Source of the DNA: a virus | Virus record (IMG/VR): IMGVR_UViG_3300032579_000011 | Location: 1 to 64,000 of that record | Direction: 5' to 3' (one strand) | DNA: 64,000 nucleotides | Shown here: in pieces, positions 4,163 through 63,231 of the stretch | Position numbering within the stretch: the first letter of the stretch is position 1 | Layout: the number at the start of each line of letters is the position of its first letter | Position numbers and translations under genes: made by a program | Notes under the pieces: model-generated | What the model was told of the DNA's origin: nothing | Seen by the model: the letters and a program-made list of their open reading frames with translations, nothing else | Database searches by the model: none

Positions 4163-5368
4163 ATGTTTAATCGAGTTTTTGGTTCACTGGTTGTTTTGGC
4201 GTTTTATAGTTTCTTGACGAATCTCTATACTCCAATCGCCACTCTTGTAACTGGTCGAGTTGCTAGCAATCAGTTTGGTAATAGCGATATGGCATATCTA
4301 CAGACAGTTTACACGTTCTCGTTTTTTAGTGGTGTGAATGCATTGTTTAGTATTGCTCTTATTATTGTTTTGGTGGCTATCTGGTTCAAGCCAACAAAGA
4401 ATTTGATTACAGCTGCGATTAGCGCCTCTCTAGCCTTTATGGTGTTTACATATCAGTCTGATCGAGCATGGGCTTACGCTGATACGACTGATAAGACCGA
4501 AGCGTATACAATTCTTCCCAACCAGACAGCGTTTTGGGTTCCTGATGCCGGCGCCAATAAGGACAGTCAGGCTCAGTTTGAAAGTGAAGAGTATTATAAC
4601 GAACGTAAGATTGCTTCAAAGCGTTTCGTAATTCCTCACGCGAAGTTGGCCAACACAGGCGGTTATTATGGATGGGATTATTATGTTCCAACGGGTCGCT
4701 TGTATATTGTTGATCGTACTCCTTATTCTCATGAATGGGTTAAGTCGAGGGAACGTGGCAGCTCAAACACTGATCAGTCTTTTCCTTGTCAGTCCAAGGA
4801 AGGTTTGAATATTACTGCAGGCGTTAGTATTGCCGCCAGTGTTGCCGAGCAGGATGCAGCCAAGTTTCTTTATAACTTCGGTGTTCAGCAGCCAAAGGGC
4901 AATCCAAACGATCCACAGGTTATCTTTCAGAGCGTTTATTATGGTCGTAGCCTTTGGAGTGTAATGGACGATGTTGGTCGTAAGAAGGTTCAGACTCTGG
5001 TTTGTAACGAAATTGGTCGTCGTACTTTCGATAAAGCCAACGAAGATTATGTACCAATGATGGACGATATCGAGAAGAACGTTAGGGCATATTTCAAGAA
5101 CTTTGGTATCACTATCAACTTTATTGGTTGGGCCGATACTTTTGAATTTGACAGTGAAGTTCAGCGTACTGTCAATAACTTCTATGAAGCAGCCAAGCTT
5201 GGTCCGGTCATGGCAACTCTTCAGGCCACTGCACAGCTTGATGTTCAGCGTGGATTGGCAAGCGGTATGGATAAGCACGGTCTTCCTATGTTTGTCTCGC
5301 CGGGAATTATTGAGGGCTTGATTAACCTCGTACCAAAGGCCCCTGCTTCTCCGGTTCCTACAAAATAA
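4163..5368 (+). CDS. Membrane protein with SPFH/band-7-like domain
   Basis: N-terminal TM helices; SKEGLNITAGVSI and FGITINFIG segments. Confidence 0.55.
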   Translation: MFNRVFGSLVVLAFYSFLTNLYTPIATLVTGRVASNQFGNSDMAYLQTVYTFSFFSGVNALFSIALIIVLVAIWFKPTKNLITAAISASLAFMVFTYQSDRAWAYADTTDKTEAYTILPNQTAFWVPDAGANKDSQAQFESEEYYNERKIASKRFVIPHAKLANTGGYYGWDYYVPTGRLYIVDRTPYSHEWVKSRERGSSNTDQSFPCQSKEGLNITAGVSIAASVAEQDAAKFLYNFGVQQPKGNPNDPQVIFQSVYYGRSLWSVMDDVGRKKVQTLVCNEIGRRTFDKANEDYVPMMDDIEKNVRAYFKNFGITINFIGWADTFEFDSEVQRTVNNFYEAAKLGPVMATLQATAQLDVQRGLASGMDKHGLPMFVSPGIIEGLINLVPKAPASPVPTK

Positions 5369-55192: not shown

Positions 55193-55220
55193 AAAAAAGG
55201 GCGGGGATGAACCCACCCTT
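55193..55220 (-). terminator. Rho-independent terminator after DUF2828 gene
   Basis: AAGGGTGGG-TTCATC-CCCGCCCTTTTTT on - strand. Confidence 0.8.
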
Positions 55221-55230
55221 AATTAGAAAT

Positions 55231-56664
55231 TTAGAAGTCGTAGCGATCAGACATTAATGTCTTAAGCATGATCGCCTCCGGAGTAAAGTCCTCCAAATCA
55301 GCAGCCAACACCGACTTAACGATAGTTGGAGAGAAACCAGAAACAAGAGCAACGCCTCGTTCATCGAACTTAACAGGCACATTTTCATGTGCATTCAAGT
55401 TCCAGAAAACGATGTTAGGCATATTGTAAGCATGATAGATATACTTACGAGCAATCATTTCCATAGCAGAGTCATCGTGAGTAGTGCACTGATCAAACTG
55501 CATGTCCGAAAGAATCAGCAGCATTGCAGGCATTTCTGACTGAGGAACATTACCTTCAATTGCAGTGAGAAGGATTTTATCCAGCGCGAGATGCAGGTTA
55601 GTGTTCATGTCCCACTTCGAAGTTACCATCTGCTTAACCTTATCGAGGATGTTACCACGAAGATGAAGCAGCTCAGGCTTGCCAGAGAAAGTCAAGAACG
55701 TATCCTTAAACTTACCAGTGTTCTTTTCAGCAAGGTAAAGACCAAGAGAAACAGAAACGTCAAGGCAAGTTACCTTCGACTTGGAGTTATAGCCACCAGC
55801 AGGTGAAGTCATTGAACCAGAAACGTCAACGAGCGGAAGGATGTTTGCATCACCAACAAAGTTAGGAAGATCATCCCACTGAGCACGAATGTGATCGAGG
55901 TTCGACTGATTATATGACGCATTGTAACCGTAAGGAGAAACACCCTTCAGCACATCATACGGATAAACCGCACCAGCATTGACCTTGACAGTCTTTGCTA
56001 CTTCAGGATCCTTCGAAACAAGAGCAGTAGTCCACTCCTTATACTTCTCAGTGTGACGTGAGAAAGCCTTCTTATATCTAGAAGAAGCAAGCGAAGGAAC
56101 ATGGTTGAAATTAATTTCATCCCAATTCTTAGCGCACATGTCCTGCTCAACAACCTTGGTCAAGCTAACCAGTGTCTTACGATACTGCTTAGGTGACATT
56201 CCAAGGAACGAACGAAGTTCAGCGGCTTCCTTACCCTTACGTGGCATCCACTTAGCAGCAAGACCATTCTTGGCTTCAAGAGCATCACGAACCATCGCAA
56301 ATGCGATCTGACGCAAATCACCCTTGGTAACAAAGATATCGTCCCAACGTCCAAGCTCGGGAACACGCTTCAAAAGACGCTCCGCATATGCAGGATCATG
56401 ATCACAAGCATATTCTAGAATATCCCGGAAAATCTTACGCTCACCAGCGCCTCCGCGAATATCACGCGCCCAAAGAACAACACGGCCAGCCAATTCCTTA
56501 TCTTGAACATAAGCTGCCGTAAAGTCAGGAATTACGTTCTTACCGCGAGATGCACCAATCTTATAGAAAAGATCAGTAACTGAATTGGCAGTAGACTTAC
56601 GAGCCTTCATACCATTAGTAGTACGAGCAGTCTGGTTCTTAACGGCATTAACAAATGTTGACAT
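55231..56664 (-). CDS. DUF2828-type protein (TROVE/Ro60-like helical domain + vWA)
   Basis: RDIRGGAGER, GRWDD, AAKWMPR, MIDAS DVSGSM, SDMQFD, VFWNL. Confidence 0.8.
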   Translation of the reverse strand: MSTFVNAVKNQTARTTNGMKARKSTANSVTDLFYKIGASRGKNVIPDFTAAYVQDKELAGRVVLWARDIRGGAGERKIFRDILEYACDHDPAYAERLLKRVPELGRWDDIFVTKGDLRQIAFAMVRDALEAKNGLAAKWMPRKGKEAAELRSFLGMSPKQYRKTLVSLTKVVEQDMCAKNWDEINFNHVPSLASSRYKKAFSRHTEKYKEWTTALVSKDPEVAKTVKVNAGAVYPYDVLKGVSPYGYNASYNQSNLDHIRAQWDDLPNFVGDANILPLVDVSGSMTSPAGGYNSKSKVTCLDVSVSLGLYLAEKNTGKFKDTFLTFSGKPELLHLRGNILDKVKQMVTSKWDMNTNLHLALDKILLTAIEGNVPQSEMPAMLLILSDMQFDQCTTHDDSAMEMIARKYIYHAYNMPNIVFWNLNAHENVPVKFDERGVALVSGFSPTIVKSVLAADLEDFTPEAIMLKTLMSDRYDF

Positions 56665-56686
56665 TTCACTTCTCCTTTGTTATCAA

Positions 56687-56742
56687 CAGATTGAACTTTT
56701 TTCTATTTTGCATATAGATTTTATTATTGCTGAACTCAATCT
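56687..56742 (-). ncRNA. CAGCA tRNA-like RNA unit 3 (56 nt)
   Basis: AGATTGA/TCAATCT-G stem, GTTCAGCA, TCTAT-ATGCAAA-ATAGA stem-loop. Confidence 0.7.
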
Positions 56743-56750
56743 TAATTAAA

Positions 56751-56814
56751 CAGTATCACTTTTTGCTTTTTTTGATTACAAGTCAAATGCATTTTGGATT
56801 GCTGAAATGATACT
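56751..56814 (-). ncRNA. CAGCA tRNA-like RNA unit 2 (64 nt)
   Basis: AGTATCA/TGATACT-G stem, TTTCAGCA, TTTGA-CTTGTAA-TCAAA stem-loop. Confidence 0.7.
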
Positions 56815-56823
56815 TAAACTTAT

Positions 56824-57042
56824 CAGGTTAGTCGCGGTATTGTGGTCCACCATCCTCCGAAGAGGTTCAGGTTATTACGAGTAACCCCGAAGGATTCTCG
56901 ACCACCCAGTGTTCATCAAAGTTCCCCCATCTTTCGATGGCTAAATCTCAGAAGGAAAGTCAAGCTTTCCAGAAGATGCCTCTAATCACTGCCTTCGCTG
57001 TTATCGCGATTTCAAACATAGGTTGTGTGCTGTATCTAACCT
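56824..57042 (-). ncRNA. CAGCA RNA unit 1 (219 nt, multi-hairpin)
   Basis: AGGTTAG/CTAACCT-G stem, ATACAGCA, GAAA and TTCG tetraloop hairpins. Confidence 0.7.
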
Positions 57043-57057
57043 TAATTCTTATCATTT

Positions 57058-57086
57058 ATAATACCGCGACTTAAGTTAAAAGTCAA
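57058..57086 (-). promoter_or_regulatory. sigma70-type promoter of the CAGCA-RNA/DUF2828 operon
   Basis: TTGACT-N17-TATTAT. Confidence 0.75.
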
Positions 57087-57096
57087 GTAGTATTTT

Positions 57097-57170
57097 TGGT
57101 GCTTCTGCGTGGAATCAAACCACGGTAGATCGATTATCAGTCGATTATTCTATCATTGAATTACAGAAGC
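57097..57170 (-). tRNA. tRNA-Ile(GAT)
   Basis: ATCGA-CTGATAA-TCGAT; CCA. Confidence 0.85.
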
Positions 57171-57176
57171 ATTAAA

Positions 57177-57201
57177 TGGTGCCGGATGAGAGATTCGAAC
57201 C
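57177..57201 (-). pseudogene. 3' fragment of a disrupted tRNA
   Basis: GTTCGAATCTCTC-ATCCGGC-ACCA; acceptor complementary to the fragment at 57440-57465. Confidence 0.7.
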
Positions 57202-57204
57202 GCC

Positions 57205-57350
57205 TAAAATCTCATTTATTATATTTAGACCCTAAAAACGAATATCTTATAAAGACAGATATTAATAAAATTATAAATGCATCAAACCAAAACAATATAT
57301 ATGTAATTGTTATTGGCAAAAAACACATTAATTTAGAGTCAATTAAAGAA
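57205..57350 (+). pseudogene. C-terminal remnant of a PD-(D/E)xK endonuclease
   Basis: YLDPKNEYLI...KI...NNIYVIVI resembles YLDPKNDYLI...KI...NKIKVLIL of ORF 60290-60925. Confidence 0.6.
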
Positions 57351-57351
57351 A

Positions 57352-57425
57352 TGGTAGGGGATAGAGGTAACGCTCCTCTTCTTCCTGCTTGTAAAACAGG
57401 CACTCTACTTTTAAGTTAATCCCCC
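57352..57425 (-). tRNA. tRNA-Val(TAC), atypical T-loop AGCGTTA
   Basis: CCTGT-TTTACAA-GCAGG; CCA. Confidence 0.75.
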
Positions 57426-57439
57426 AAAATTATTTTAGG

Positions 57440-57465
57440 TTGCTCTACCTCTGTGCTAATCCGGC
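57440..57465 (-). pseudogene. 5' fragment of a disrupted tRNA
   Basis: GCCGGAT-TA-GCAC-AGAGGTA-GAGC-A. Confidence 0.7.
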
Positions 57466-57469
57466 GTAT

Positions 57470-57546
57470 TGGCGCGACGGAAGGGAGTCGAACCCTCATT
57501 GCCCTGATTGAAAGTCAGGTTTCCTAGGCCGTTAGAAGACCGTCGC
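57470..57546 (-). tRNA. tRNA-Glu(TTC)
   Basis: CCTGA-CTTTCAA-TCAGG; CCA. Confidence 0.9.
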
Positions 57547-57550
57547 ATAA

Positions 57551-57640
57551 TGGCGGAAAGGGTGAGATTCGAACTCACGGAACCCTTTCAGGTTCGCTAG
57601 TTTTCAAGACTAGAGCCATCAACCACTCGGCCACCTTTCC
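57551..57640 (-). tRNA. tRNA-Ser(TGA)
   Basis: CTAGT-CTTGAAA-ACTAG; long variable arm. Confidence 0.92.
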
Positions 57641-57692
57641 ATTATTCTTTATATAGTATATTCTAAGACTTGTTTAAAGTCAAGCATTATTT

Positions 57693-57768
57693 TGGCACCC
57701 CGTCAAGGACTCGAACCCTGCTCTTCGGTTTTGGAGACCGAAACATCGCCCCTAAATGCTTACGAGGT
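57693..57768 (-). tRNA. tRNA-Trp(CCA)
   Basis: TCGGT-CTCCAAA-ACCGA. Confidence 0.85.
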
Positions 57769-57785
57769 ATTGTTTCTATTTATAA

Positions 57786-57875
57786 TGGCGGAGAGTGAGA
57801 GATTCGAACTCTCGGTAGAGTTTCCCCTACGTCTCGTTAGCAGTGAGGTGCCTTAGACCGCTCGGCCAACTCTCC
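57786..57875 (-). tRNA. tRNA-Ser(GCT)
   Basis: CTGCTAA loop; long variable arm. Confidence 0.88.
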
Positions 57876-57880
57876 ATTAA

Positions 57881-57956
57881 TGGAGCTTCCCCACGGAATC
57901 AAACCGTATCCTCACGTTCTTCAGACGCACGTGCACATCAGTTACACCAGAGAAGC
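57881..57956 (-). tRNA. tRNA-Phe(GAA)
   Basis: TGCGT-CTGAAGA-ACGTG. Confidence 0.8.
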
Positions 57957-57964
57957 ATTAAATT

Positions 57965-58040
57965 TGGATCGGGGAGCAGGGGTCGAACCTGCAGTCTTAC
58001 GGAGTCAAAGGCCGAGATGTTACCATTACACCATCCCCGA
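57965..58040 (-). tRNA. tRNA-Gln(TTG)
   Basis: CTTTGAC loop; CCA. Confidence 0.8.
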
Positions 58041-58053
58041 ACAATTCTTAATT

Positions 58054-58131
58054 TGGTGCCGAGTGGTGGGCGTCGAACCCACTTTAATCAGGATATGAAT
58101 CTGATGCGATAGCCAATACCGCCCCATCGGC
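58054..58131 (-). tRNA. tRNA-Met/Ile2(CAT), bulged acceptor stem
   Basis: TCAGA-TTCATAT-CCTGA. Confidence 0.7.
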
Positions 58132-58146
58132 ATTATTTGTATTTAG

Positions 58147-58222
58147 TGGTACCCGCTCTTGGATTCGAACCAAGTCTACCTGATCCACAATCAAGTGTGC
58201 TGACCAACAACACTAAGCGAGC
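58147..58222 (-). tRNA. tRNA-His(GTG), alphaproteobacterial type
   Basis: CTTGA-TTGTGGA-TCAGG; G1:U72, A73, no G-1. Confidence 0.88.
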
Positions 58223-58227
58223 ATAAT

Positions 58228-58304
58228 TGGTGCCCATGGTAGGACTCGAACCTACAAAACTCGGAGTTTGAAGCCGATACGTATACCAATTCCGTCACAA
58301 GGGC
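58228..58304 (-). tRNA. tRNA-Leu(CAA), short variable loop
   Basis: TCGGC-TTCAAAC-TCCGA; Leu-type D-arm. Confidence 0.8.
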
Positions 58305-58305
58305 T

Positions 58306-58381
58306 TGGCGCTGTTTGAGAGGATCGAACTCCCGACATCCTGATTACTAAACAGGTGCTCTACCAACTGAGCTAAAACAGC
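58306..58381 (-). tRNA. tRNA-Thr(AGT)
   Basis: CCTGT-TTAGTAA-TCAGG; canonical D and T arms. Confidence 0.78.
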
Positions 58382-58388
58382 ATTATAA

Positions 58389-58469
58389 TGGTGCGCCTGG
58401 CAAGACTTGAACTTGCACCCGAAGACCAGTTTCTAAGACTGGCGTGTCTACCTATTCCACCACAAGCGC
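58389..58469 (-). tRNA. tRNA-Leu(TAG)
   Basis: CCAGT-CTTAGAA-ACTGG. Confidence 0.88.
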
Positions 58470-58964
58470 AGATTTTCTTTTTCTCCATGTCATTGTAAAT
58501 GAATGGCAATTTGGGCAAAGACCTTCTAAATTATTTCTATCGTTATTATTCGTATTGCCATCTTTATGTTCTAATTCAAGTTTTATGGGTTGACCTAACC
58601 ACTCAAATATTCCACAGTTATTACATTTAAAGTTTTGTTCTTCAAAAACTCTTCTTCTTTTTTGACCAGAACTAAGATCTTCAAACATTTTTGACAAATA
58701 CAAATTTTCTCTTTTCTTTTTTACTTTTTCTGATATACGGTTTCTAGTTTCTTCATTTATTGCGGAAAGGCGTTTTTCAATATGTTCTTGACTTTGTTTC
58801 TTTCCTTTATTGGATGGAGATCTTCCAATTAATTTTTCACTAACTTTTAAATTAATTTCTTTTCTTTTTGAGAAAGTAGAAAAAGCCGAAGCACATTTTT
58901 TACAACAAAATCTTCCAGAACCATATTCACCTGAATGAGTTTCTTTACAATATTCACATAACAT
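58452..58964 (-). CDS. HNH endonuclease (paralog of 39535)
   Basis: CNNC...LELEHKDG..NN...LCPNCH; stop inside tRNA-Leu(TAG). Confidence 0.85.
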   Translation of the reverse strand: MLCEYCKETHSGEYGSGRFCCKKCASAFSTFSKRKEINLKVSEKLIGRSPSNKGKKQSQEHIEKRLSAINEETRNRISEKVKKKRENLYLSKMFEDLSSGQKRRRVFEEQNFKCNNCGIFEWLGQPIKLELEHKDGNTNNNDRNNLEGLCPNCHSFTMTWRKRKSALVVE

Positions 58965-59021
58965 TTTTGAACCTCCAAAGTAACTTTTATATAAAGTTAT
59001 TTATAAAAGTTCGTTTTTCAG

Positions 59022-59096
59022 TGGAGCGTCGAGCGGGAATCGAACCCGCATCTCTTGGTTGGAAGCCAAGAATAATAACCACTATACTACCGACGC
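59022..59096 (-). tRNA. tRNA-Gly(TCC)
   Basis: CTTGG-CTTCCAA-CCAAG. Confidence 0.9.
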
Positions 59097-59168
59097 GAGC
59101 GGGGAACGAGAATCGAACTCGTACGATTACCTTGGCAAGGTAACAGGCTACCACTACATCACCCCCGC
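59097..59168 (-). tRNA. tRNA-Gly(GCC), no encoded CCA, abuts next tRNA
   Basis: TTACC-TTGCCAA-GGTAA. Confidence 0.85.
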
Positions 59169-59171
59169 ATA

Positions 59172-59238
59172 CTGCTGCTCCGATTCGAACGGCGTTATTC
59201 TCTTGTCGAAATAGTGTTTCCCATCAACACCGACAGCA
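59172..59238 (-). pseudogene. Degenerate tRNA-like element (possibly Val-GAC)
   Basis: TGCTG/CAGCA acceptor, CCG-TTCGAAT-CGG T-arm; poor anticodon stem. Confidence 0.45.
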
Positions 59239-59245
59239 ATTTAAA

Positions 59246-59322
59246 TGGAGGTCAGTGAAGGACTCAAACCCTCAACCTTCGCGTTCGTAGCGCGATGCTC
59301 TATTCAGTTGAGCTAACTGACC
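59246..59322 (-). tRNA. tRNA-Arg(ACG)
   Basis: TCGCG-CTACGAA-CGCGA. Confidence 0.88.
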
Positions 59323-59623
59323 TTTTTCTTTTATTTTTTATTTTTTTCGTAGCTTTCCAAAGCTGTACCCCACTTTTTTCAAGTTTATGAATTTCATTAT
59401 GACAATTTCTACAGACAGGAACTAAATCTATACCTATATGTTCATTTCCAAGACGTTTATATGTTCTATGATGTAAATCTAATGGGACGTTAGACGCTTG
59501 GCAACAATAACAATTCCATTTTCCTTCGCCTTTTATTTGTTTATATAAATTTGAAGAGTAGAAATCTTTTCTCTTTTTTTGCCATTCTTTTGAATTGATA
59601 TAATCATAATATTTCATATACAA
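59300..59623 (-). CDS. Small HNH endonuclease
   Basis: CYCC...LDLHHRTY..LG.E...LVPVCRNCH; stop inside tRNA-Arg. Confidence 0.85.
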   Translation of the reverse strand: MYMKYYDYINSKEWQKKRKDFYSSNLYKQIKGEGKWNCYCCQASNVPLDLHHRTYKRLGNEHIGIDLVPVCRNCHNEIHKLEKSGVQLWKATKKIKNKRKRSVSSTE

Positions 59624-59632
59624 GACTTTCTA

Positions 59633-59707
59633 TGGAGGTGCCTCCCAGAATCGAACTGGGTTCTCAAGGTTTTGCAGACCTGTGCATTGCCATCCTACTC
59701 AGGCACC
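59633..59707 (-). tRNA. tRNA-Cys(GCA)
   Basis: AGGT-CTGCAAA-ACCT; U73. Confidence 0.82.
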
Positions 59708-59905
59708 AATATATTCTATTCTTGGATCACTAGGAGTTGGTTGACCATACCATATGGTTGTATCCATTTCCATAATACGATAGATGCGATATTCTGGATA
59801 ATTTTGTTCAAATAAATTGAAGACATCATTAACAATTTCGACATTACGAACAACACGAGTATGTTGTTTCATATCATAATTATATTGAACGATTACGTCA
59901 GTCAT
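59699..59905 (-). CDS. Hypothetical protein (68 aa) ending inside tRNA-Cys
   Basis: AAAGGA RBS, MTDVIVQY...; TGA at tRNA positions 7-9. Confidence 0.6.
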   Translation of the reverse strand: MTDVIVQYNYDMKQHTRVVRNVEIVNDVFNLFEQNYPEYRIYRIMEMDTTIWYGQPTPSDPRIEYIGA

Positions 59906-59921
59906 ATCAAAATCCTTTAAT

Positions 59922-59997
59922 TGGCTGGGGATCAAGGACTCGAACCTCGGACATCCAGATTCAGAGTCTGGCGTTCTACCAACTGAACTAATCCCCA
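59922..59997 (-). tRNA. tRNA-Gln(CTG)
   Basis: CCAGA-CTCTGAA-TCTGG. Confidence 0.9.
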
Positions 59998-60003
59998 ATA
60001 TAA

Positions 60004-60077
60004 TGGCGATCCTAAAGGGACTCGAACCCTCCTTTACCCGTAGACAGCGGGTAGCCTTCCCTGACGGCAATAGGACC
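60004..60077 (-). tRNA. tRNA-Asp(GTC)
   Basis: ACCCG-CTGTCTA-CGGGT. Confidence 0.82.
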
Positions 60078-60084
60078 ATTAATT

Positions 60085-60157
60085 TGGTTGCGGTCGCTGG
60101 TGACGCTCCAGTTCTCTAGCTTATGAGGCTAGCATGGCACTTTTCCACTACCCCGCA
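60085..60157 (-). tRNA. tRNA-Met(CAT), atypical T-loop AGCGTCA
   Basis: CTAGC-CTCATAA-GCTAG; CCA. Confidence 0.7.
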
Positions 60158-60222
60158 ATAAAATTTATCTAGCAAACAACAAAATCCATTGTACTCGCAT
60201 CATTTTTTGTTTCCTTTTAATA

Positions 60223-60299
60223 TGGTGCTGAAGAAAGGACTCGAACCCTCAACCTTCGCATTACAAGTGCGCTGCTCTACCAATTAAAGCTACTTCAGC
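60223..60299 (-). tRNA. tRNA-Thr(TGT)
   Basis: CGCA-CTTGTAA-TGCG. Confidence 0.9.
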
Positions 60300-60925
60300 A
60301 ATTTAATTATTTCATTCCAACATAGTTGGTTCTTATTCAAGATTAACACTTTAATCTTATTTTGATCACAAACTTTATTTATTTTTTCTTCATCAGAAAA
60401 TCCTAAACTGGGATTATTGTTATTGATCAAATAATCGTTTTTTGGGTCCAAATATATATTATAATCAATCAAATACATATCTGGAGTATATGTTCTATGC
60501 TTACCATTTCTATCAACATAATTAAATTTTTTACAAGTATCCCATCTTATATTATTCTCGTCTAATGATTGTGCAACAATCAATTCATATGTTGAACCAA
60601 GAATTTTATCTTTATATCTTATTCTTCTAGATTGTGAAACGCCACCCAATCCTCTTTCTTTAGCAAGCTTACTCATCTTTATTTTTACAGATTCTGTTTG
60701 ACCTCTTTTTCGATTTGTATCAGCTATTCTTTCTAAAGCTTCTTTGGATATTTTAGGTTTTTGTAAACCTAATTCTTTAGCCTTTTTATATTGATTAGAA
60801 TGTTTTCTGATGCTAAAATCATAAATTCTAATTTTACGATCGGGATTTAATTTACACATTCTTTGATGATTTCTCAAAGAATTATTATTTTTACATTCTT
60901 TATTACAAAAAGTACAAAGTAGCAT
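60290..60925 (-). CDS. Zn-finger + PD-(D/E)xK endonuclease (paralog of 41314)
   Basis: CTFC...NSLRNHQRMC; STYE...YTPDMY...LDPK; stop inside tRNA-Thr. Confidence 0.8.
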   Translation of the reverse strand: MLLCTFCNKECKNNNSLRNHQRMCKLNPDRKIRIYDFSIRKHSNQYKKAKELGLQKPKISKEALERIADTNRKRGQTESVKIKMSKLAKERGLGGVSQSRRIRYKDKILGSTYELIVAQSLDENNIRWDTCKKFNYVDRNGKHRTYTPDMYLIDYNIYLDPKNDYLINNNNPSLGFSDEEKINKVCDQNKIKVLILNKNQLCWNEIIKLLK

Positions 60926-60960
60926 TTTTATCTTTAATATTACGTTGATTTATATTTATA

Positions 60961-61238
60961 ATTATCGTATCAGTTCTCCAGCCCTTTGGGAGCGCGACTT
61001 CCCTATTCACCTTCACAGAATTTTCGCACGTCTGCTAGACACGATAATTATAATTCGCTGTGGTTTTAGAACATTAGGACCACCATCCTAGACTCGGAAC
61101 TTTTCAGCCCGGAATTACCGACTAACCGTGGGTCGGCGCGTGTCTATTAAGCGACAAACCTTAATTATCATATGGTAGAGATTCTAGATTTCTCCTTTAC
61201 CAAGCTACGAGCTTCCTAGCAACTGAGCGACCATATGA
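60961..61238 (-). ncRNA. Three tandem structured non-tRNA elements within the tRNA array
   Basis: Closing stems at 60961-61048, 61055-61154 and 61168-61238; GC-rich; no ORF. Confidence 0.55.
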
Positions 61239-61240
61239 AT

Positions 61241-61372
61241 TTAAATTCCCAAAGACTCGTTTATATATGAAATAGCCTCTTCAATACAAGTTATGGTTTT
61301 TTCATCTTCTATATGTTTATTCTTAAGCATTATTAAAACAAACAAAACTTTTTTAAGCTTCTCATAATCCAT
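61241..61372 (-). CDS. Small hypothetical protein (43 aa)
   Basis: AAAGGA RBS; MDYEKLKKVLF... Confidence 0.5.
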   Translation of the reverse strand: MDYEKLKKVLFVLIMLKNKHIEDEKTITCIEEAISYINESLGI

Positions 61373-61396
61373 AATATATCCTTTATGTTTTTAGAT

Positions 61397-61470
61397 TGGT
61401 GGAGACGGAGAGAATCGAACTCTCAAGTACGCCGTGCAAAAGCGTCAGTTTACCGTTAGCTTACGCCCCC
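61397..61470 (-). tRNA. tRNA-Ala(TGC)
   Basis: TTTGCAC loop; G3:U70. Confidence 0.9.
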
Positions 61471-61475
61471 ATTAT

Positions 61476-61554
61476 TGGCTCCTGTCGTAGGGATCGAACC
61501 TACCTAATCAGTGGTTAACAGCCACGTCCATGCACCAAGCTCGGATTGACAGGA
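61476..61554 (-). tRNA. tRNA-Asn(GTT)
   Basis: GTGG-CTGTTAA-CCAC. Confidence 0.82.
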
Positions 61555-61566
61555 ATAAAACTTTAT

Positions 61567-62151
61567 TTATACGTTAGCGAGAACCTTTTGCGTCTTGAAG
61601 CAAAACCAACAAGTAGAAGGTGTTACTCCGACTTTCTCGTTAACGAGATGGTCTCTAACAGCCTTCATAATTCCTTGATAAGGATCTGCGAAATCGTGTC
61701 CAGCCAACAAACCACCAACTTTAACTTTTGGAAACCAAGCCAAAAGGTCTTTACGAAAAGATTCATAATCGTGAGAAGCGTCAATAAAGACAAAATCCAA
61801 AGACTCATCTTCGTAAAGACTAGCCGATTCTGTGCTATCTCCCTTAATTGCTTCGTAATGACCAACAACAGGCCTCATATTATCCTTAAAAACACCCAAC
61901 AAACGACCCGCCTTATTGTCCGGATCAAACATCTGACCAGGTTCGATAACAGATCCGGTAAAATTATCGATACAATCTAACTTAATATCTTTACCGCTAT
62001 TGATAATTTCTACAGCCAAAAAAGCAGAGCTCTGACCTTTCCAAGTACCTATTTCAACGAAATGAGCCTTGTCGGGCGCAGTATCAACTGCATACTTAAA
62101 CATATCCGGATAATTAAACCAACCTTCAACGTTCTGATAAAAATGTTCCAT
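61567..62151 (-). CDS. Class I SAM-dependent methyltransferase (Methyltransf_24-like)
   Basis: VEIGTWKGQS, DFVFIDASHDY, GGLLAGHD. Confidence 0.88.
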   Translation of the reverse strand: MEHFYQNVEGWFNYPDMFKYAVDTAPDKAHFVEIGTWKGQSSAFLAVEIINSGKDIKLDCIDNFTGSVIEPGQMFDPDNKAGRLLGVFKDNMRPVVGHYEAIKGDSTESASLYEDESLDFVFIDASHDYESFRKDLLAWFPKVKVGGLLAGHDFADPYQGIMKAVRDHLVNEKVGVTPSTCWFCFKTQKVLANV

Positions 62152-62163
62152 ATATAACTCCTA

Positions 62164-62835
62164 TTAATCCGTATCCATAACGATATCGCCCGATACCGCA
62201 ATTCTATAATCATCTGAAGTGTAGAAAGGGTTAACTGAATGACCTAATCCTTTGGGGAACAGACAAATTATACCTTCATAAGGATGATCGACCGGAATAG
62301 GATGACTTCTAACTTGACCAAGAATATCTGTGTAATAAAAGACAAACATTGAAGCACACTTAAGAGTGGCCTTTGGAAAAACCGCTATTTCATCTTGAAT
62401 ATTATAAGGTATCTTCGTCCAGATAACGAAAGAATAAACACCACCATGAATATGATGAGGATGAAATTCGTGCTTCTTTTGGAAGTTAGCCCAAACGTCT
62501 TTAAACTTAAACCGTCTTGGATGCGAAGCAACGTTAACTACTTCGTTGATAAAATGCGGTTGCGATCTATGATTGTGTAAATCTATCAAGCTATTAATAT
62601 AATCCAACAAAACTGGAGAAAGTTCTTTTGTAAAGTCATATTCTCTTGAAATGTTTGCAGTAAGTTTATAACCAGCTTCTACAGAACCTTCAAACTCTTT
62701 CTCAACAGCGCCGTCGGTTACTTCACGAACCTTAGACATTATATCTTCAGGAACTCTATGAAATACAACACCGTTATTAGGGAAAGTATAGAATAAGGCT
62801 TGATCGCCTTGTAAATTAGAAATTTGATCTGCCAT
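62164..62835 (-). CDS. 2OG-Fe(II) oxygenase-like protein
   Basis: WANFQKKHEFHPHHIH...SFVIW...FP..LGHSV.P...RIAVSG. Confidence 0.8.
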   Translation of the reverse strand: MADQISNLQGDQALFYTFPNNGVVFHRVPEDIMSKVREVTDGAVEKEFEGSVEAGYKLTANISREYDFTKELSPVLLDYINSLIDLHNHRSQPHFINEVVNVASHPRRFKFKDVWANFQKKHEFHPHHIHGGVYSFVIWTKIPYNIQDEIAVFPKATLKCASMFVFYYTDILGQVRSHPIPVDHPYEGIICLFPKGLGHSVNPFYTSDDYRIAVSGDIVMDTD

Positions 62836-62883
62836 AATTTGTTCACCTTTAAGTATATTGATCAATATTATTATTTATACGAT

Positions 62884-62962
62884 TGGTAGACCATATCAGA
62901 TTCGAACTGATGTATGACAGAGATTAAGAGTCTCCCGCTAAAACCAACTCAGCTAATGGTCC
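62884..62962 (-). tRNA. tRNA-Lys(CTT)
   Basis: GGAGA-CTCTTAA-TCTCT. Confidence 0.82.
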
Positions 62963-62968
62963 ATAAAC

Positions 62969-63052
62969 TGGTGCCGAGAGTAGGATTCGAACCTACCGTG
63001 TTATAAACGTCCGATTTACAGTCGGGTGCCCGGCCACTTAGGCGGTCTCGGC
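62969..63052 (-). tRNA. tRNA-Tyr(GTA)
   Basis: CCGA-CTGTAAA-TCGG; long variable arm. Confidence 0.85.
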
Positions 63053-63057
63053 ATTAA

Positions 63058-63134
63058 TGGTCGGGGATGCAGGATTCGAACCTGCGACCTCTCGGTCCCA
63101 AACCGAGCGCACTATCAAGCTGTGCTAATCCCCG
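63058..63134 (-). tRNA. tRNA-Pro(TGG)
   Basis: CTCGG-TTTGGGA-CCGAG. Confidence 0.92.
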
Positions 63135-63155
63135 TAAATTTTCTTACGTAGTAAT

Positions 63156-63231
63156 TGGAGGACCCACTCGGATTCGAACCGAGAACCTAGAGATTAAAAG
63201 TCACTTGCACCACCAATTGTGCTATGGGTCC
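63156..63231 (-). tRNA. tRNA-Lys(TTT)
   Basis: CTTTTAA loop; CCA. Confidence 0.88.

What the first reader, a model, noticed from the sequence alone, without database searches (positions are those of the whole stretch)
56824..57042. The 219-nt CAGCA RNA carries a large folded domain where the short units have an anticodon arm
Seen: GC-rich and ORF-free, with hairpins CCATC-GAAA-GATGG, CCTC-TTCG-GAGG, ATCC-TTCG-GGGT and GGAAAG-CTTGA-CTTTCC, plus a TCGCG/CGCGA inner stem. GNRA and UUCG tetraloops read on the - strand. Inference: a constant protein-binding handle with a swappable effector domain, as in Y RNAs.
Basis: partly seen in the sequence, partly recalled or inferred. Interest (0 to 1): 0.7.

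Follow-up and report, generated by a model that had tools for sequence, protein, structure and literature searches.

The report
Large-cargo Y-like RNA beside Ro60-like gene
The 219-base element is a real, structurally conserved non-coding RNA of a lake phage that carries a large folded domain inside the short "handle" shared by its two small neighbours, and all three most likely serve as partner RNAs of the Ro60-shaped protein encoded just downstream.

Summary
Observation confirmed. On the minus strand, 57042-56824 is a 219-nt unit closed by a 7-bp stem (AGGUUAG/CUAACCU), then AUA-CAGCA, ending in G. Units B (56814-56751) and C (56742-56687) share this handle. A promoter precedes the three units. 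A 477-aa DUF2828/DUF7788 gene and a terminator follow.

I found five further distinct versions of the cargo in other phage contigs, one again upstream of a DUF2828 gene. Eight helices are kept: 97% of cells pair, 16 of 38 pairs change on both sides, and 0 of 500 shuffles reach this. The TCGCG/CGCGA stem is not supported; a local hairpin is.

Short contigs in four metatranscriptome studies match the unit.

The protein model (pLDDT 92.7) matches only Ro60 structures over its whole length. In 80 related loci the handle occurs 259 times on the gene strand and 11 on the other, with many cargo types. Some cargoes are tRNA-like and score weakly to YrlA.

Reading: a Y-RNA-like RNA with a new large cargo. 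Binding and cargo function are untested. This scan has noted the handle family before on other DNA. The cargo class, its covariation and the RNA-library evidence are specific to this report.

The parts
57058..57086 (-). sigma-70-like promoter TTGACT-17-TATTAT; the expected start lies a few bases 5' of the unit
   Evidence: 10 of 12 matches. A variant RNA-library contig reaches 57048.
56824..57042 (-). Unit A: the 219-nt CAGCA-handle RNA with large cargo (the finding)
57036..57042 (-). P1 5' strand AGGUUAG (handle)
   Evidence: G-C to A-U changes at two positions in L275
57028..57032 (-). CAGCA motif, three bases after P1
   Evidence: C, G, C invariant and A 89-96% in 265 unique units (C, G, C fixed by the pattern used to collect the units)
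56995..57009 (-). P2 hairpin UCGC-GAUAACA-GCGA (4 bp, 7-nt loop)
   Evidence: helix 2: 100% paired, 2 covarying pairs
56907..56991 (-). P3 domain: closing stem CAGUG (56987-56991) with CACUG (56907-56911)
   Evidence: helix 3: pair types A-U, G-C and U-A at one position
56974..56983 (-). P3b: small hairpin with conserved GGCA loop (AGA-GGCA-UCU here; 5 bp in relatives)
   Evidence: helix 4
56912..56973 (-). 62-nt insertion absent from the five other distinct versions; holds hairpins GGAAAG-CUUGA-CUUUCC (56954-56970) and CCAUC-GAAA-GAUGG (56927-56940)
   Evidence: absent from L087, L253, L084, L273, L275. It lies within the spans of the RNA-library contigs, with no deletion reported there.
56842..56905 (-). 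P4 domain: GUGGUC (56900-56905) with GGACCAC (56842-56848), enclosing P5, the conserved joiner and P6
   Evidence: helix 5 (G-C in 3, A-U in 3 at the outer pair)
56879..56899 (-). P5 hairpin with UUCG loop; a site of insertions in relatives
   Evidence: helices 6-7
56867..56878 (-). Joiner GUAAUAACCUGA; the last 11 bases (UAAUAACCUGA) are invariant in all six versions; drawn unpaired in my model (RNAalifold pairs its ACC)
56854..56865 (-). P6 hairpin CCUC-UUCG-GAGG; a different hairpin occupies this place in L087, L084 and L273
   Evidence: helix 8
56824..56831 (-). P1 3' strand CUAACCU plus the final G
   Evidence: An RNA-library contig from run X15 stops at 56824.
56751..56814 (-). Unit B: 64-nt handle RNA; hairpin UUUGA-CUUGUAA-UCAAA with the anticodon loop of the phage tRNA-Thr(UGU)
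56687..56742 (-). Unit C: 56-nt handle RNA; hairpin loop AUGCAAA (tRNA-Cys loop is CUGCAAA)
55231..56664 (-). 477-aa DUF2828 + DUF7788 protein with a Ro60-like fold (helical ring plus vWA domain with MIDAS motif DxSxS)
55197..55220 (-). Intrinsic-terminator-like hairpin closing the operon

Best explanation
Unit A is the first of three small RNAs made from one promoter together with the messenger of a Ro60-shaped protein.

Shown: it has a conserved eight-helix fold. It sits inside the same terminal handle as its neighbours (a 7-bp end-to-end stem, three bases, CAGCA, and a G after the 3' strand). Short contigs matching it occur in RNA libraries.

Inferred: the handle is the docking site for the DUF2828 ring protein, as the terminal stem of Y RNAs is for Ro60. 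The protein stabilises the RNA. The cargo of about 200 nt projects from the particle. In relatives this cargo is a core of about 145-175 nt; here it is enlarged by a 62-nt two-hairpin insertion.

Most likely the cargo gives the particle its specificity by binding a host or phage factor, for example an exoribonuclease or an RNA-processing or repair enzyme. The tRNA-mimic cargoes of units B and C would give the same protein other specificities.
For: Anatomy and operon.

Conserved structure: five other distinct versions were found (L087, L253, L084, L273 = L279 = L282, L275; L177 is identical to the window). They give 97.4% paired cells, 16 of 38 pairs with changes on both sides, 0 of 500 shuffles as good, and slid controls of 0-4 such pairs. 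Hairpins P5 and P6 are replaced by unrelated hairpins at the same places.

Linkage: in L275 the same cargo again lies upstream of a DUF2828 gene, with a different handle stem.

RNA libraries: contigs of 170-264 nt from four metatranscriptome studies lie on the unit. X15 covers 56824-56999 at 99%. X18 covers 56901-57032, flanked by Illumina adapters. X16 and X17 are variants with 13-14 nt put in at P5.

Family: 259 units on the gene strand against 11 on the other strand in 80 loci. Pairing is enriched only at the true offset (28.6% against about 10%). The handle logo comes from 265 unique units.

Protein: the model has pLDDT 92.7. The 12 Foldseek matches with E at or below 1e-3 that are listed (13 by the tool's count) are all Ro60 or TROVE structures, E 2e-8 to 1e-4, TM up to 0.63. 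The MIDAS DxSxS motif is invariant. The best profile matches in the PDB are weak (E about 0.1-0.2) but four of the six are Ro60 or TROVE chains, aligned at the MIDAS region.

Sibling units: they score to YrlA at E 8e-8 to 1e-3.

Portability of the handle: in Cronobacter phage S13 it is a closed hairpin inside tRNA-shaped RNAs that lie downstream of the gene. Three units lie upstream of the gene in Synechococcus phage BUCT-ZZ01.
Against: No binding has been shown. The link between protein and handle rests on gene neighbourhood and on analogy with Ro60.

The handle does not resemble the Ro60-binding helix of known Y RNAs. Neither Rfam Y_RNA nor YrlA matches unit A.

Nothing identifies a partner for the cargo. 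It has no Rfam match, no match in cultured phages and no match in E. coli genomes.

Only six distinct sequences support the fold, and several are close kin, so shuffle counts overstate independence.

Contigs in RNA libraries can stem from contaminating DNA. They cannot give ends or strand.
Confidence: 0.6

Rival explanations
1. The cargo is a decoy or sponge rather than a tether. It would mimic a host RNA or the target of a host nuclease or defence sensor and soak it up. The Ro60-like protein would merely stabilise the RNA. The tRNA-mimic siblings would be decoys for anticodon nucleases.
For: Units B and C display loops like the anticodon loops of the phage's tRNA-Thr(UGU) and tRNA-Cys. Relatives carry whole rearranged tRNA bodies. 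The locus abuts a 25-gene tRNA array. The phiLo study reports that its Ro60 with Yrl RNAs dampens host PNPase (PMC12135203).
Against: Unit A's cargo resembles no known RNA. Anticodon-arm-like hairpins were no more frequent in cargo bodies than in their reverse complements (54 against 78).
Confidence: 0.2
2. Unit A is a cis-acting leader. The three handles would be binding sites in the 5' untranslated region through which the DUF2828 protein controls its own synthesis, and would not be separate stable RNAs.
For: The units and the gene share one promoter and one terminator, and no terminator lies between them. Unit C ends 9 nt before the ribosome-binding site. A variant RNA-library contig runs from unit A into the next unit, as a precursor would.
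Against: In Cronobacter phage S13 the handle RNAs lie downstream of the gene and have tRNA-like CCA ends. A cargo of about 145-175 nt with eight covarying helices is far more than a binding site needs. Short RNA-library contigs match unit A alone. Autoregulation through unit C could coexist with the main reading.
Confidence: 0.12
3. The handles are processing or stability signals for host RNases and are unrelated to the neighbouring protein. The cargo would be an independent RNA of unknown activity, for example a ribozyme or a ligand-binding RNA.
For: The units are separated by spacers of only 8-9 nt, like tRNAs in an array. The core has invariant stretches drawn unpaired in my model and peripheral expansions, as catalytic and ligand-binding RNAs do.
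Against: The handle travels with the DUF2828 gene in all 80 viral loci, where nearly all units lie just upstream of the gene, in L275 and in three cultured phages whose proteins are only 44-48% identical to this one. No ribozyme or riboswitch family matched at E up to 10.
Confidence: 0.06

Closest known systems
Ro60 (Rsr) with Y RNAs, especially bacterial and phage YrlA (Rfam RF02553; Chen et al. 2014, PMC4201824)
   Same: The RNAs are encoded beside a ring-shaped Ro60-fold protein with a vWA/MIDAS domain. The 5' and 3' ends pair in a terminal stem. Each RNA has a constant protein-side module and a variable module. Several different RNAs accompany one protein gene. Sibling units carry a T arm, a closed acceptor stem and a D arm in the YrlA order, and they score to RF02553.
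   Different: The protein belongs to Pfam DUF2828/DUF7788, not TROVE, and has no sequence-level match to solved Ro60. The handle (7-bp stem plus NUW-CAGCA) is unlike the Ro60-binding helix, and that part of the YrlA model does not align to it. Unit A's cargo is not tRNA-like and is much larger than known Y-RNA modules.
Thermus phage phiLo Ro60 with Yrl1 and Yrl2 (PMC12135203; PDB 9KOP, 9L5Y)
   Same: It is a phage-encoded Ro60-fold protein with candidate partner RNAs directly upstream of its gene. It is among the top structural matches.
   Different: phiLo Ro60 is a TROVE protein. Its Yrl RNAs were picked by a CGAA bulge motif, not by a CAGCA handle. No large structured cargo is described.
Class I RNAs of dictyostelid social amoebae (Rfam RF01414; Kjellin et al. 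2021, PMC7919456)
   Same: Both have a short terminal stem whose sequence varies with compensatory changes, a conserved motif ..UUACAGCAA directly after the 5' strand, a variable rest and a 3' end CUGU. Units B and C score 23.0 and 20.9 bits to RF01414.
   Different: All scores lie far below the gathering score of 41.5. Only 4 of about 13 short units examined match at all. The spacing between stem and motif differs by one base. Unit A is 219 nt against 42-65 nt. Class I RNAs are reported as unique to Dictyostelia, with the RRM protein Rnp1A as binder.
Stable RNAs of unknown function in the T4 tRNA gene cluster (species 1 and 2, RNA C and D); from my own knowledge, not tested
   Same: They are phage-encoded non-tRNA stable RNAs placed beside a tRNA array.
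   Different: No sequence or structure comparison was made here. I do not know of a Ro60-like gene in T4.

Membership tests
CAGCA-handle RNAs beside DUF2828 genes (provisional family of this scan) | Terminal stem of about 7 bp starting (A/G)G and pairing the first and last bases of the unit | tested here: met
   AGGUUAG/CUAACCU; covaries in L275
CAGCA-handle RNAs beside DUF2828 genes (provisional family of this scan) | N-U-W-CAGCA starting three bases after the 5' strand, and G after the 3' strand | tested here: met
   AUA-CAGCA at 57035-57028 and G at 56824
CAGCA-handle RNAs beside DUF2828 genes (provisional family of this scan) | Lies in tandem with other units, on the same strand as an adjacent DUF2828 gene | tested here: met
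Y RNA in the functional sense (Ro60-bound non-coding RNA) | Physically bound by the Ro60-family protein | not testable with these tools
   Needs immunoprecipitation or gel-shift. Complex prediction takes no RNA.
Y RNA in the functional sense (Ro60-bound non-coding RNA) | Encoded next to a Ro60-family gene | tested here: met
   The neighbour has a Ro60 fold by structure prediction, though it is Pfam DUF2828 and not TROVE.
Y RNA in the functional sense (Ro60-bound non-coding RNA) | The conserved Ro60-binding helix of known Y RNAs | tested here: not met
   No Y_RNA or YrlA match to unit A at E up to 10. The stem part of YrlA does not align to the handle in siblings.
YrlA (Rfam RF02553) | tRNA-like domain (T arm, closed acceptor stem, D arm) and a score at or above the gathering score of 69 bits | tested here: not met
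   Unit A has no match. Sibling units in relatives reach 29-42 bits only.
Dictyostelium Class I RNA (Rfam RF01414) | 42-65 nt, 6-bp terminal stem, 11-nt motif CCUUACAGCAA, and a score at or above 41.5 bits | tested here: not met
   Unit A is 219 nt and has no match. Units B and C reach 23.0 and 20.9 bits.
Ro60 / TROVE protein family (for the neighbouring gene) | Helical-repeat ring plus C-terminal vWA domain with a MIDAS motif | tested here: met
   Full-length Foldseek matches to 2I91, 1YVR, 9KOP, 9L5Y, 9NEN and 2NVO. DxSxS is invariant.
Ro60 / TROVE protein family (for the neighbouring gene) | Match to Pfam TROVE (PF05731) | tested here: not met
   Pfam gives only DUF2828 and DUF7788.

The most novel reading that the evidence does not exclude
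The CAGCA handle with a DUF2828 ring protein would be one ancient ribonucleoprotein system shared by phages and eukaryotes. The orphan Class I RNAs of Dictyostelium would be its eukaryotic members. DUF2828 proteins also occur in plants, fungi and protists. One uncharacterised protein pulled down with a Class I RNA, DDB_G0281243, could be the Ro60-like partner. Within that system, unit A's core of about 150 nt would be an autonomous functional RNA of a new class, carried by the particle, with its own ligand, target or activity.
Probability: 0.12. Interest if true: 0.9.

Novelty: new variant of a known kind. Interest (0 to 1): 0.66.

Why it matters
Ro60 and its Y RNAs are a classic but poorly understood RNA-surveillance system. 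Known Y RNAs are small, and their variable modules are few.

Here a distant Ro60-shaped protein, present in 710 cultured-phage records and thousands of protein clusters, comes with RNAs that put very different bodies into one handle. One of those bodies is a conserved multi-helix domain of about 150-200 nt that matches short contigs in lake metatranscriptomes.

If the handle is the protein's docking site, phages use one protein as a chassis for many RNA-specified functions. The large cargo would then be a new structured RNA class whose partner can be fished out.

Cultured phage-host pairs with the system exist, so the idea is testable: Synechococcus elongatus PCC 7942 with BUCT-ZZ01, Cronobacter with S13, and Stenotrophomonas with DLP_6.

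Tried and rejected
Searches that gave nothing for unit A:
- Rfam at gathering score and at E up to 10.
- blastn against cultured phages and against E. coli genomes.

Tool and scan problems:
- The metagenome scan gave nothing closer than 74%.
- The pattern GATAACAGCGNAGGCA gave mostly chance matches; 2 of 111 were real.

Structures rejected:
- The 11-bp stem GUCGCGGUAUU (57070-57060) with AAUACCGCGAC (56842-56832) that dominates the minimum-energy fold with flanks. Its 5' arm lies in the promoter spacer and -10 box, and relatives lack it.
- The CAGC/GCUG hairpin predicted in relatives, which is absent from the window.
- Pairing of GCA of the motif with UGC near the 3' end. It never varies and is mismatched in the window.

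Other negatives:
- Canonical anticodon-arm hairpins in cargo bodies are not above the reverse-complement control (54 against 78).
- RNA libraries: the ORF side (56300-56586) and the tRNA side (57079-57500) had no cover in the four runs laid.
- Units B and C were not covered by the near-identical contigs (X15, X18). Only short pieces of a relative's contig in X16 and a loose end in X17 touch that stretch. They may be too short to assemble.
- The identity of DDB_G0281243 could not be checked. Only one held paper names it, its supplements have no hit, and Avesson 2011 is not held.
- The 'longer' protein search found eukaryotic DUF2828 proteins but no Dictyostelium entry and no telling domain fusion.
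- The protein atlas gave only viral DUF2828 clusters.
- ARAGORN with introns allowed found no tRNA in 57150-57500.
- Papers: DUF2828, PF11443 and related terms returned nothing on function.

Full report
**Where it lies.** The window is part of a 78.9-kb virus record from lake water. It carries 24 minus-strand tRNA genes by ARAGORN, and 26 counting two more that only Rfam calls, at 57097-63231. The order on the minus strand after the last tRNA (Ile, 57170-57097) is:
- a promoter-like site, TTGACT-17-TATTAT (57086-57058);
- the 219-nt element (57042-56824);
- two short elements (56814-56751 and 56742-56687);
- a ribosome-binding site;
- a 477-aa ORF (56664-55231);
- a terminator-like hairpin (55220-55197).

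**The observation.** The unit is richer in G+C than its surroundings, 47% against 36.6%.

A mechanical scan was run for a 7-nt segment, three bases, C[AC]GCA, and the reverse complement of that segment followed by G. Across the whole window it returns a chance-level number of hits. But the hits include three adjacent, same-strand units that all start with AG and have offset 3. The first is exactly 57042-56824. Folding energies are modestly better than shuffles, z from -2.5 to -3.3.

**Is the cargo conserved?** The 80 viral and 80 metagenome loci fetched through the neighbouring protein are 61-74% identical to it. At first they showed DNA similarity only to the short-unit and leader part. nhmmer then found cargo homologues in L087 and L084. 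Two pattern scans of IMG/VR added four more:
- L253;
- L177, which is identical to the window;
- L273, which is identical to L279 and L282;
- L275, which is more distant.

In L275 the unit has a different handle stem (AGAUUAA/UUAAUCU). It again lies upstream of a short handle unit and a DUF2828 gene.

The six distinct sequences share a core with these parts:
- P1, the handle stem;
- a joiner that holds AUACAGCA and UUUGRAA;
- P2, with 4 bp and a 7-nt loop;
- P3, with an inner hairpin capped by GGCA;
- P4, which encloses P5, the invariant joiner UAAUAACCUGA, and P6.

On the alignment my structure pairs 97.4% of cells. Sixteen of 38 pairs change on both sides. No shuffle of 500 reaches the observed pairing or covariation. 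Partners slid by 1-3 columns give 0-4 such pairs. With six related sequences these figures overstate independence, but every helix except P1 carries compensatory changes among the AGGUUAG-handle members themselves, and P1 covaries in L275.

P5 and P6 are sites of replacement and insertion. The window's lineage has a 62-nt insertion in the P3 loop that holds the GAAA and CUUGA hairpins.

It competes with P2, never covaries, and fails in L275. The 11-bp stem that dominates the fold with flanks uses promoter DNA and is absent from relatives.

**RNA libraries.** Fourteen lake and freshwater DNA runs hold the whole stretch, and six metatranscriptome runs hold part of it. Four RNA runs from four studies were laid on 56300-57500. 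They gave short contigs on unit A:
- X15: 56824-56999 at 99% identity.
- X18: 56901-57032, with Illumina adapters on both sides, which indicates a short insert.
- X16: 56834-57021, with 13 nt put in at P5.
- X17: 56815-57048, with 14 nt put in at P5, running into the next unit of a relative.

This fits an abundant small RNA, and it adds two expressed variants. By the tool's own caveats it does not prove transcription, strand or ends.

**The neighbours.** Units B and C have the same handle around hairpins with 7-nt loops. B's loop CUUGUAA is identical to the anticodon loop of the phage's tRNA-Thr(UGU). C's loop AUGCAAA is one base from that of tRNA-Cys(GCA).

In the 80 viral loci the handle pattern occurs 259 times on the gene strand and 11 times on the other strand, almost always in tandem just upstream of the gene. 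Pairing is enriched only at the true offset.

A logo from 265 unique units (C, G, C of the motif and the final G were fixed by the search pattern) reads UUUU|AG(G/A)(A/U)UNN|NUW|CAGCAA ... A-rich ... |NNA(U/A)(C/U)CU|GUU.

Cargo sizes fall into four bins: up to 75 nt (106 units), 76-140 nt (68), 141-200 nt (49) and over 200 nt (42). Many of the mid-sized units are rearranged tRNAs with an anticodon arm, T arm, closed acceptor stem and D arm. These score to Rfam YrlA at E 8e-8 to 1e-3 through the tRNA-like part, below the gathering score.

Cultured phages carry the handle too:
- Synechococcus phage BUCT-ZZ01 has three units upstream of the gene.
- Stenotrophomonas phage DLP_6 has one minimal unit just upstream of the start codon.
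- Cronobacter phage S13 has the handle as a closed hairpin in place of the anticodon arm of tRNA-shaped RNAs. These lie downstream of the gene and are annotated as 121-nt and 113-nt 'tRNAs'.

The handle is therefore a portable module.

**The protein.** Pfam gives DUF2828 and DUF7788, and PHROGs calls it an 'RNA-binding protein'. It has no sequence-level match in the PDB. A profile gives weak matches (E about 0.1-0.2), four of the six to Ro60 or TROVE chains, at the MIDAS motif. An AlphaFold model from 114 sequences has pLDDT 92.7. Its 12 significant Foldseek matches listed (13 by the tool's count) are all Ro60 or TROVE structures aligned over the whole length: Xenopus, human, D. radiodurans and Thermus phage phiLo. 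Homologues occur in 710 cultured-phage records and 5,974 clusters at 50% identity, and in plants, fungi and protists.

**How it most likely works.** Shown: the operon layout, the shared handle, a conserved cargo fold, presence in RNA libraries, and a Ro60-fold neighbour. Inferred: the ring protein docks on the handle, as Ro60 docks on the Y-RNA stem. The cargo gives each particle its specificity. For unit A that would be binding of a still unknown factor; for B and C it would be tRNA mimicry.

I put 0.9 on a genuine structured RNA of this family, about 0.65 on handle-protein binding, and about 0.35 on a tether role for the cargo. Rivals are a decoy role, a cis-acting autoregulatory leader, and processing signals unrelated to the protein. 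The S13 layout and the size of the conserved fold argue against a purely cis role.

**What is known.** Three papers bear on this:
- Chen et al. 2014 (PMC4201824) described YrlA RNAs beside TROVE-type Ro60 genes in bacteria and phages.
- A 2025 paper characterised phiLo Ro60 with two upstream Yrl RNAs (PMC12135203).
- A Listeria phage paper speculated that abundant transcripts near an Rsr-like gene are Y RNAs (PMC12282133).

I found nothing on DUF2828 function or on a CAGCA handle.

The handle also resembles Dictyostelium Class I RNAs (RF01414). These have a terminal stem with compensatory changes, the motif UUACAGCAA after the 5' strand, and a CUGU end. The scores are weak and patchy, so I treat this as a lead. 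One uncharacterised protein from a Class I pull-down, DDB_G0281243, could not be checked.

**Earlier notes of this scan.** Other windows have been reported with the same handle-plus-Ro60-like pairing, and some with the Class I resemblance. I reached both points from my own calls before reading those notes. They are not independent evidence. Specific to this report are the large-cargo class, its covariation, its lineage-specific insertion and the RNA-library contigs.

**Verdict.** This is a real, conserved and probably expressed structured RNA. It is a new large-cargo variant of a Y-RNA-like family attached to a divergent Ro60-like protein. Its function is untested.

Noticed in passing
window 57172-57200 and 57459-57465, minus strand: A tRNA 3'-half look-alike (GGUUCGAAUC T-loop, then AUCCGGC-A-CCA) lies at 57200-57172. 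Its exact 7-nt acceptor partner GCCGGAU lies at 57465-57459, followed by a D-arm-like stretch. Between the two halves are tRNA-Val (57425-57355, called by Rfam only) and about 150 AT-rich bases. It could be an interrupted or split tRNA, or another tRNA-derived RNA. ARAGORN with introns allowed found nothing.
   Followed up: partly
window 57060-57070 and 56832-56842: A perfect 11-bp inverted repeat (GTCGCGGTATT / AATACCGCGAC on the minus strand) links the promoter spacer and -10 box to the 3' tail of unit A. It is present only in this lineage (also in L177). It would pair only in read-through transcripts from the tRNA array. Unexplained.
   Followed up: partly
L290 (Cronobacter phage S13, NC_028773.1) 4396-4789: The annotated 'tRNA-Ser' (121 nt) and 'tRNA-OTHER' (113 nt) are tRNA-shaped RNAs whose anticodon arm is replaced by a closed CAGCA-handle hairpin (GCAAACU-GACA-AGUUUGU-AUUCAGCA). 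A third handle unit with a tRNA-like body follows at 4654-4789. All lie downstream of the DUF2828 gene.
   Followed up: partly
L289 (Synechococcus phage BUCT-ZZ01, ON615601.1) 2151-2479: Three unannotated handle units (about 178, 62 and 69 nt) lie directly upstream of the DUF2828 gene of a cultured cyanophage of S. elongatus PCC 7942, a tractable test system.
   Followed up: partly
L036-L042 and others, for example L037:1632-1888: A separate large-cargo class of 227-258 nt, present in many relatives, ends in a likely H-type pseudoknot: GGGUCA..GUAACUG..UGACC, an A-rich stretch, then CAGUUAC just before the handle 3' strand. Compensatory changes are seen between variants (GUAAC/GUUAC against GAAAC/GUUUC). 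It is not related in sequence to unit A.
   Followed up: no
window 56751-56814 and 56687-56742; L003:1230-1319; L014:2925-2983: These short handle units give weak Rfam matches to Dictyostelium Class I RNA (RF01414; 16.9-25.4 bits against a gathering score of 41.5). Other short units do not match.
   Followed up: partly
window 58452-58964 and 60290-60925, minus strand: ORFs matching HNH endonuclease and endonuclease families are interspersed in the tRNA array (PHROGs).
   Followed up: no
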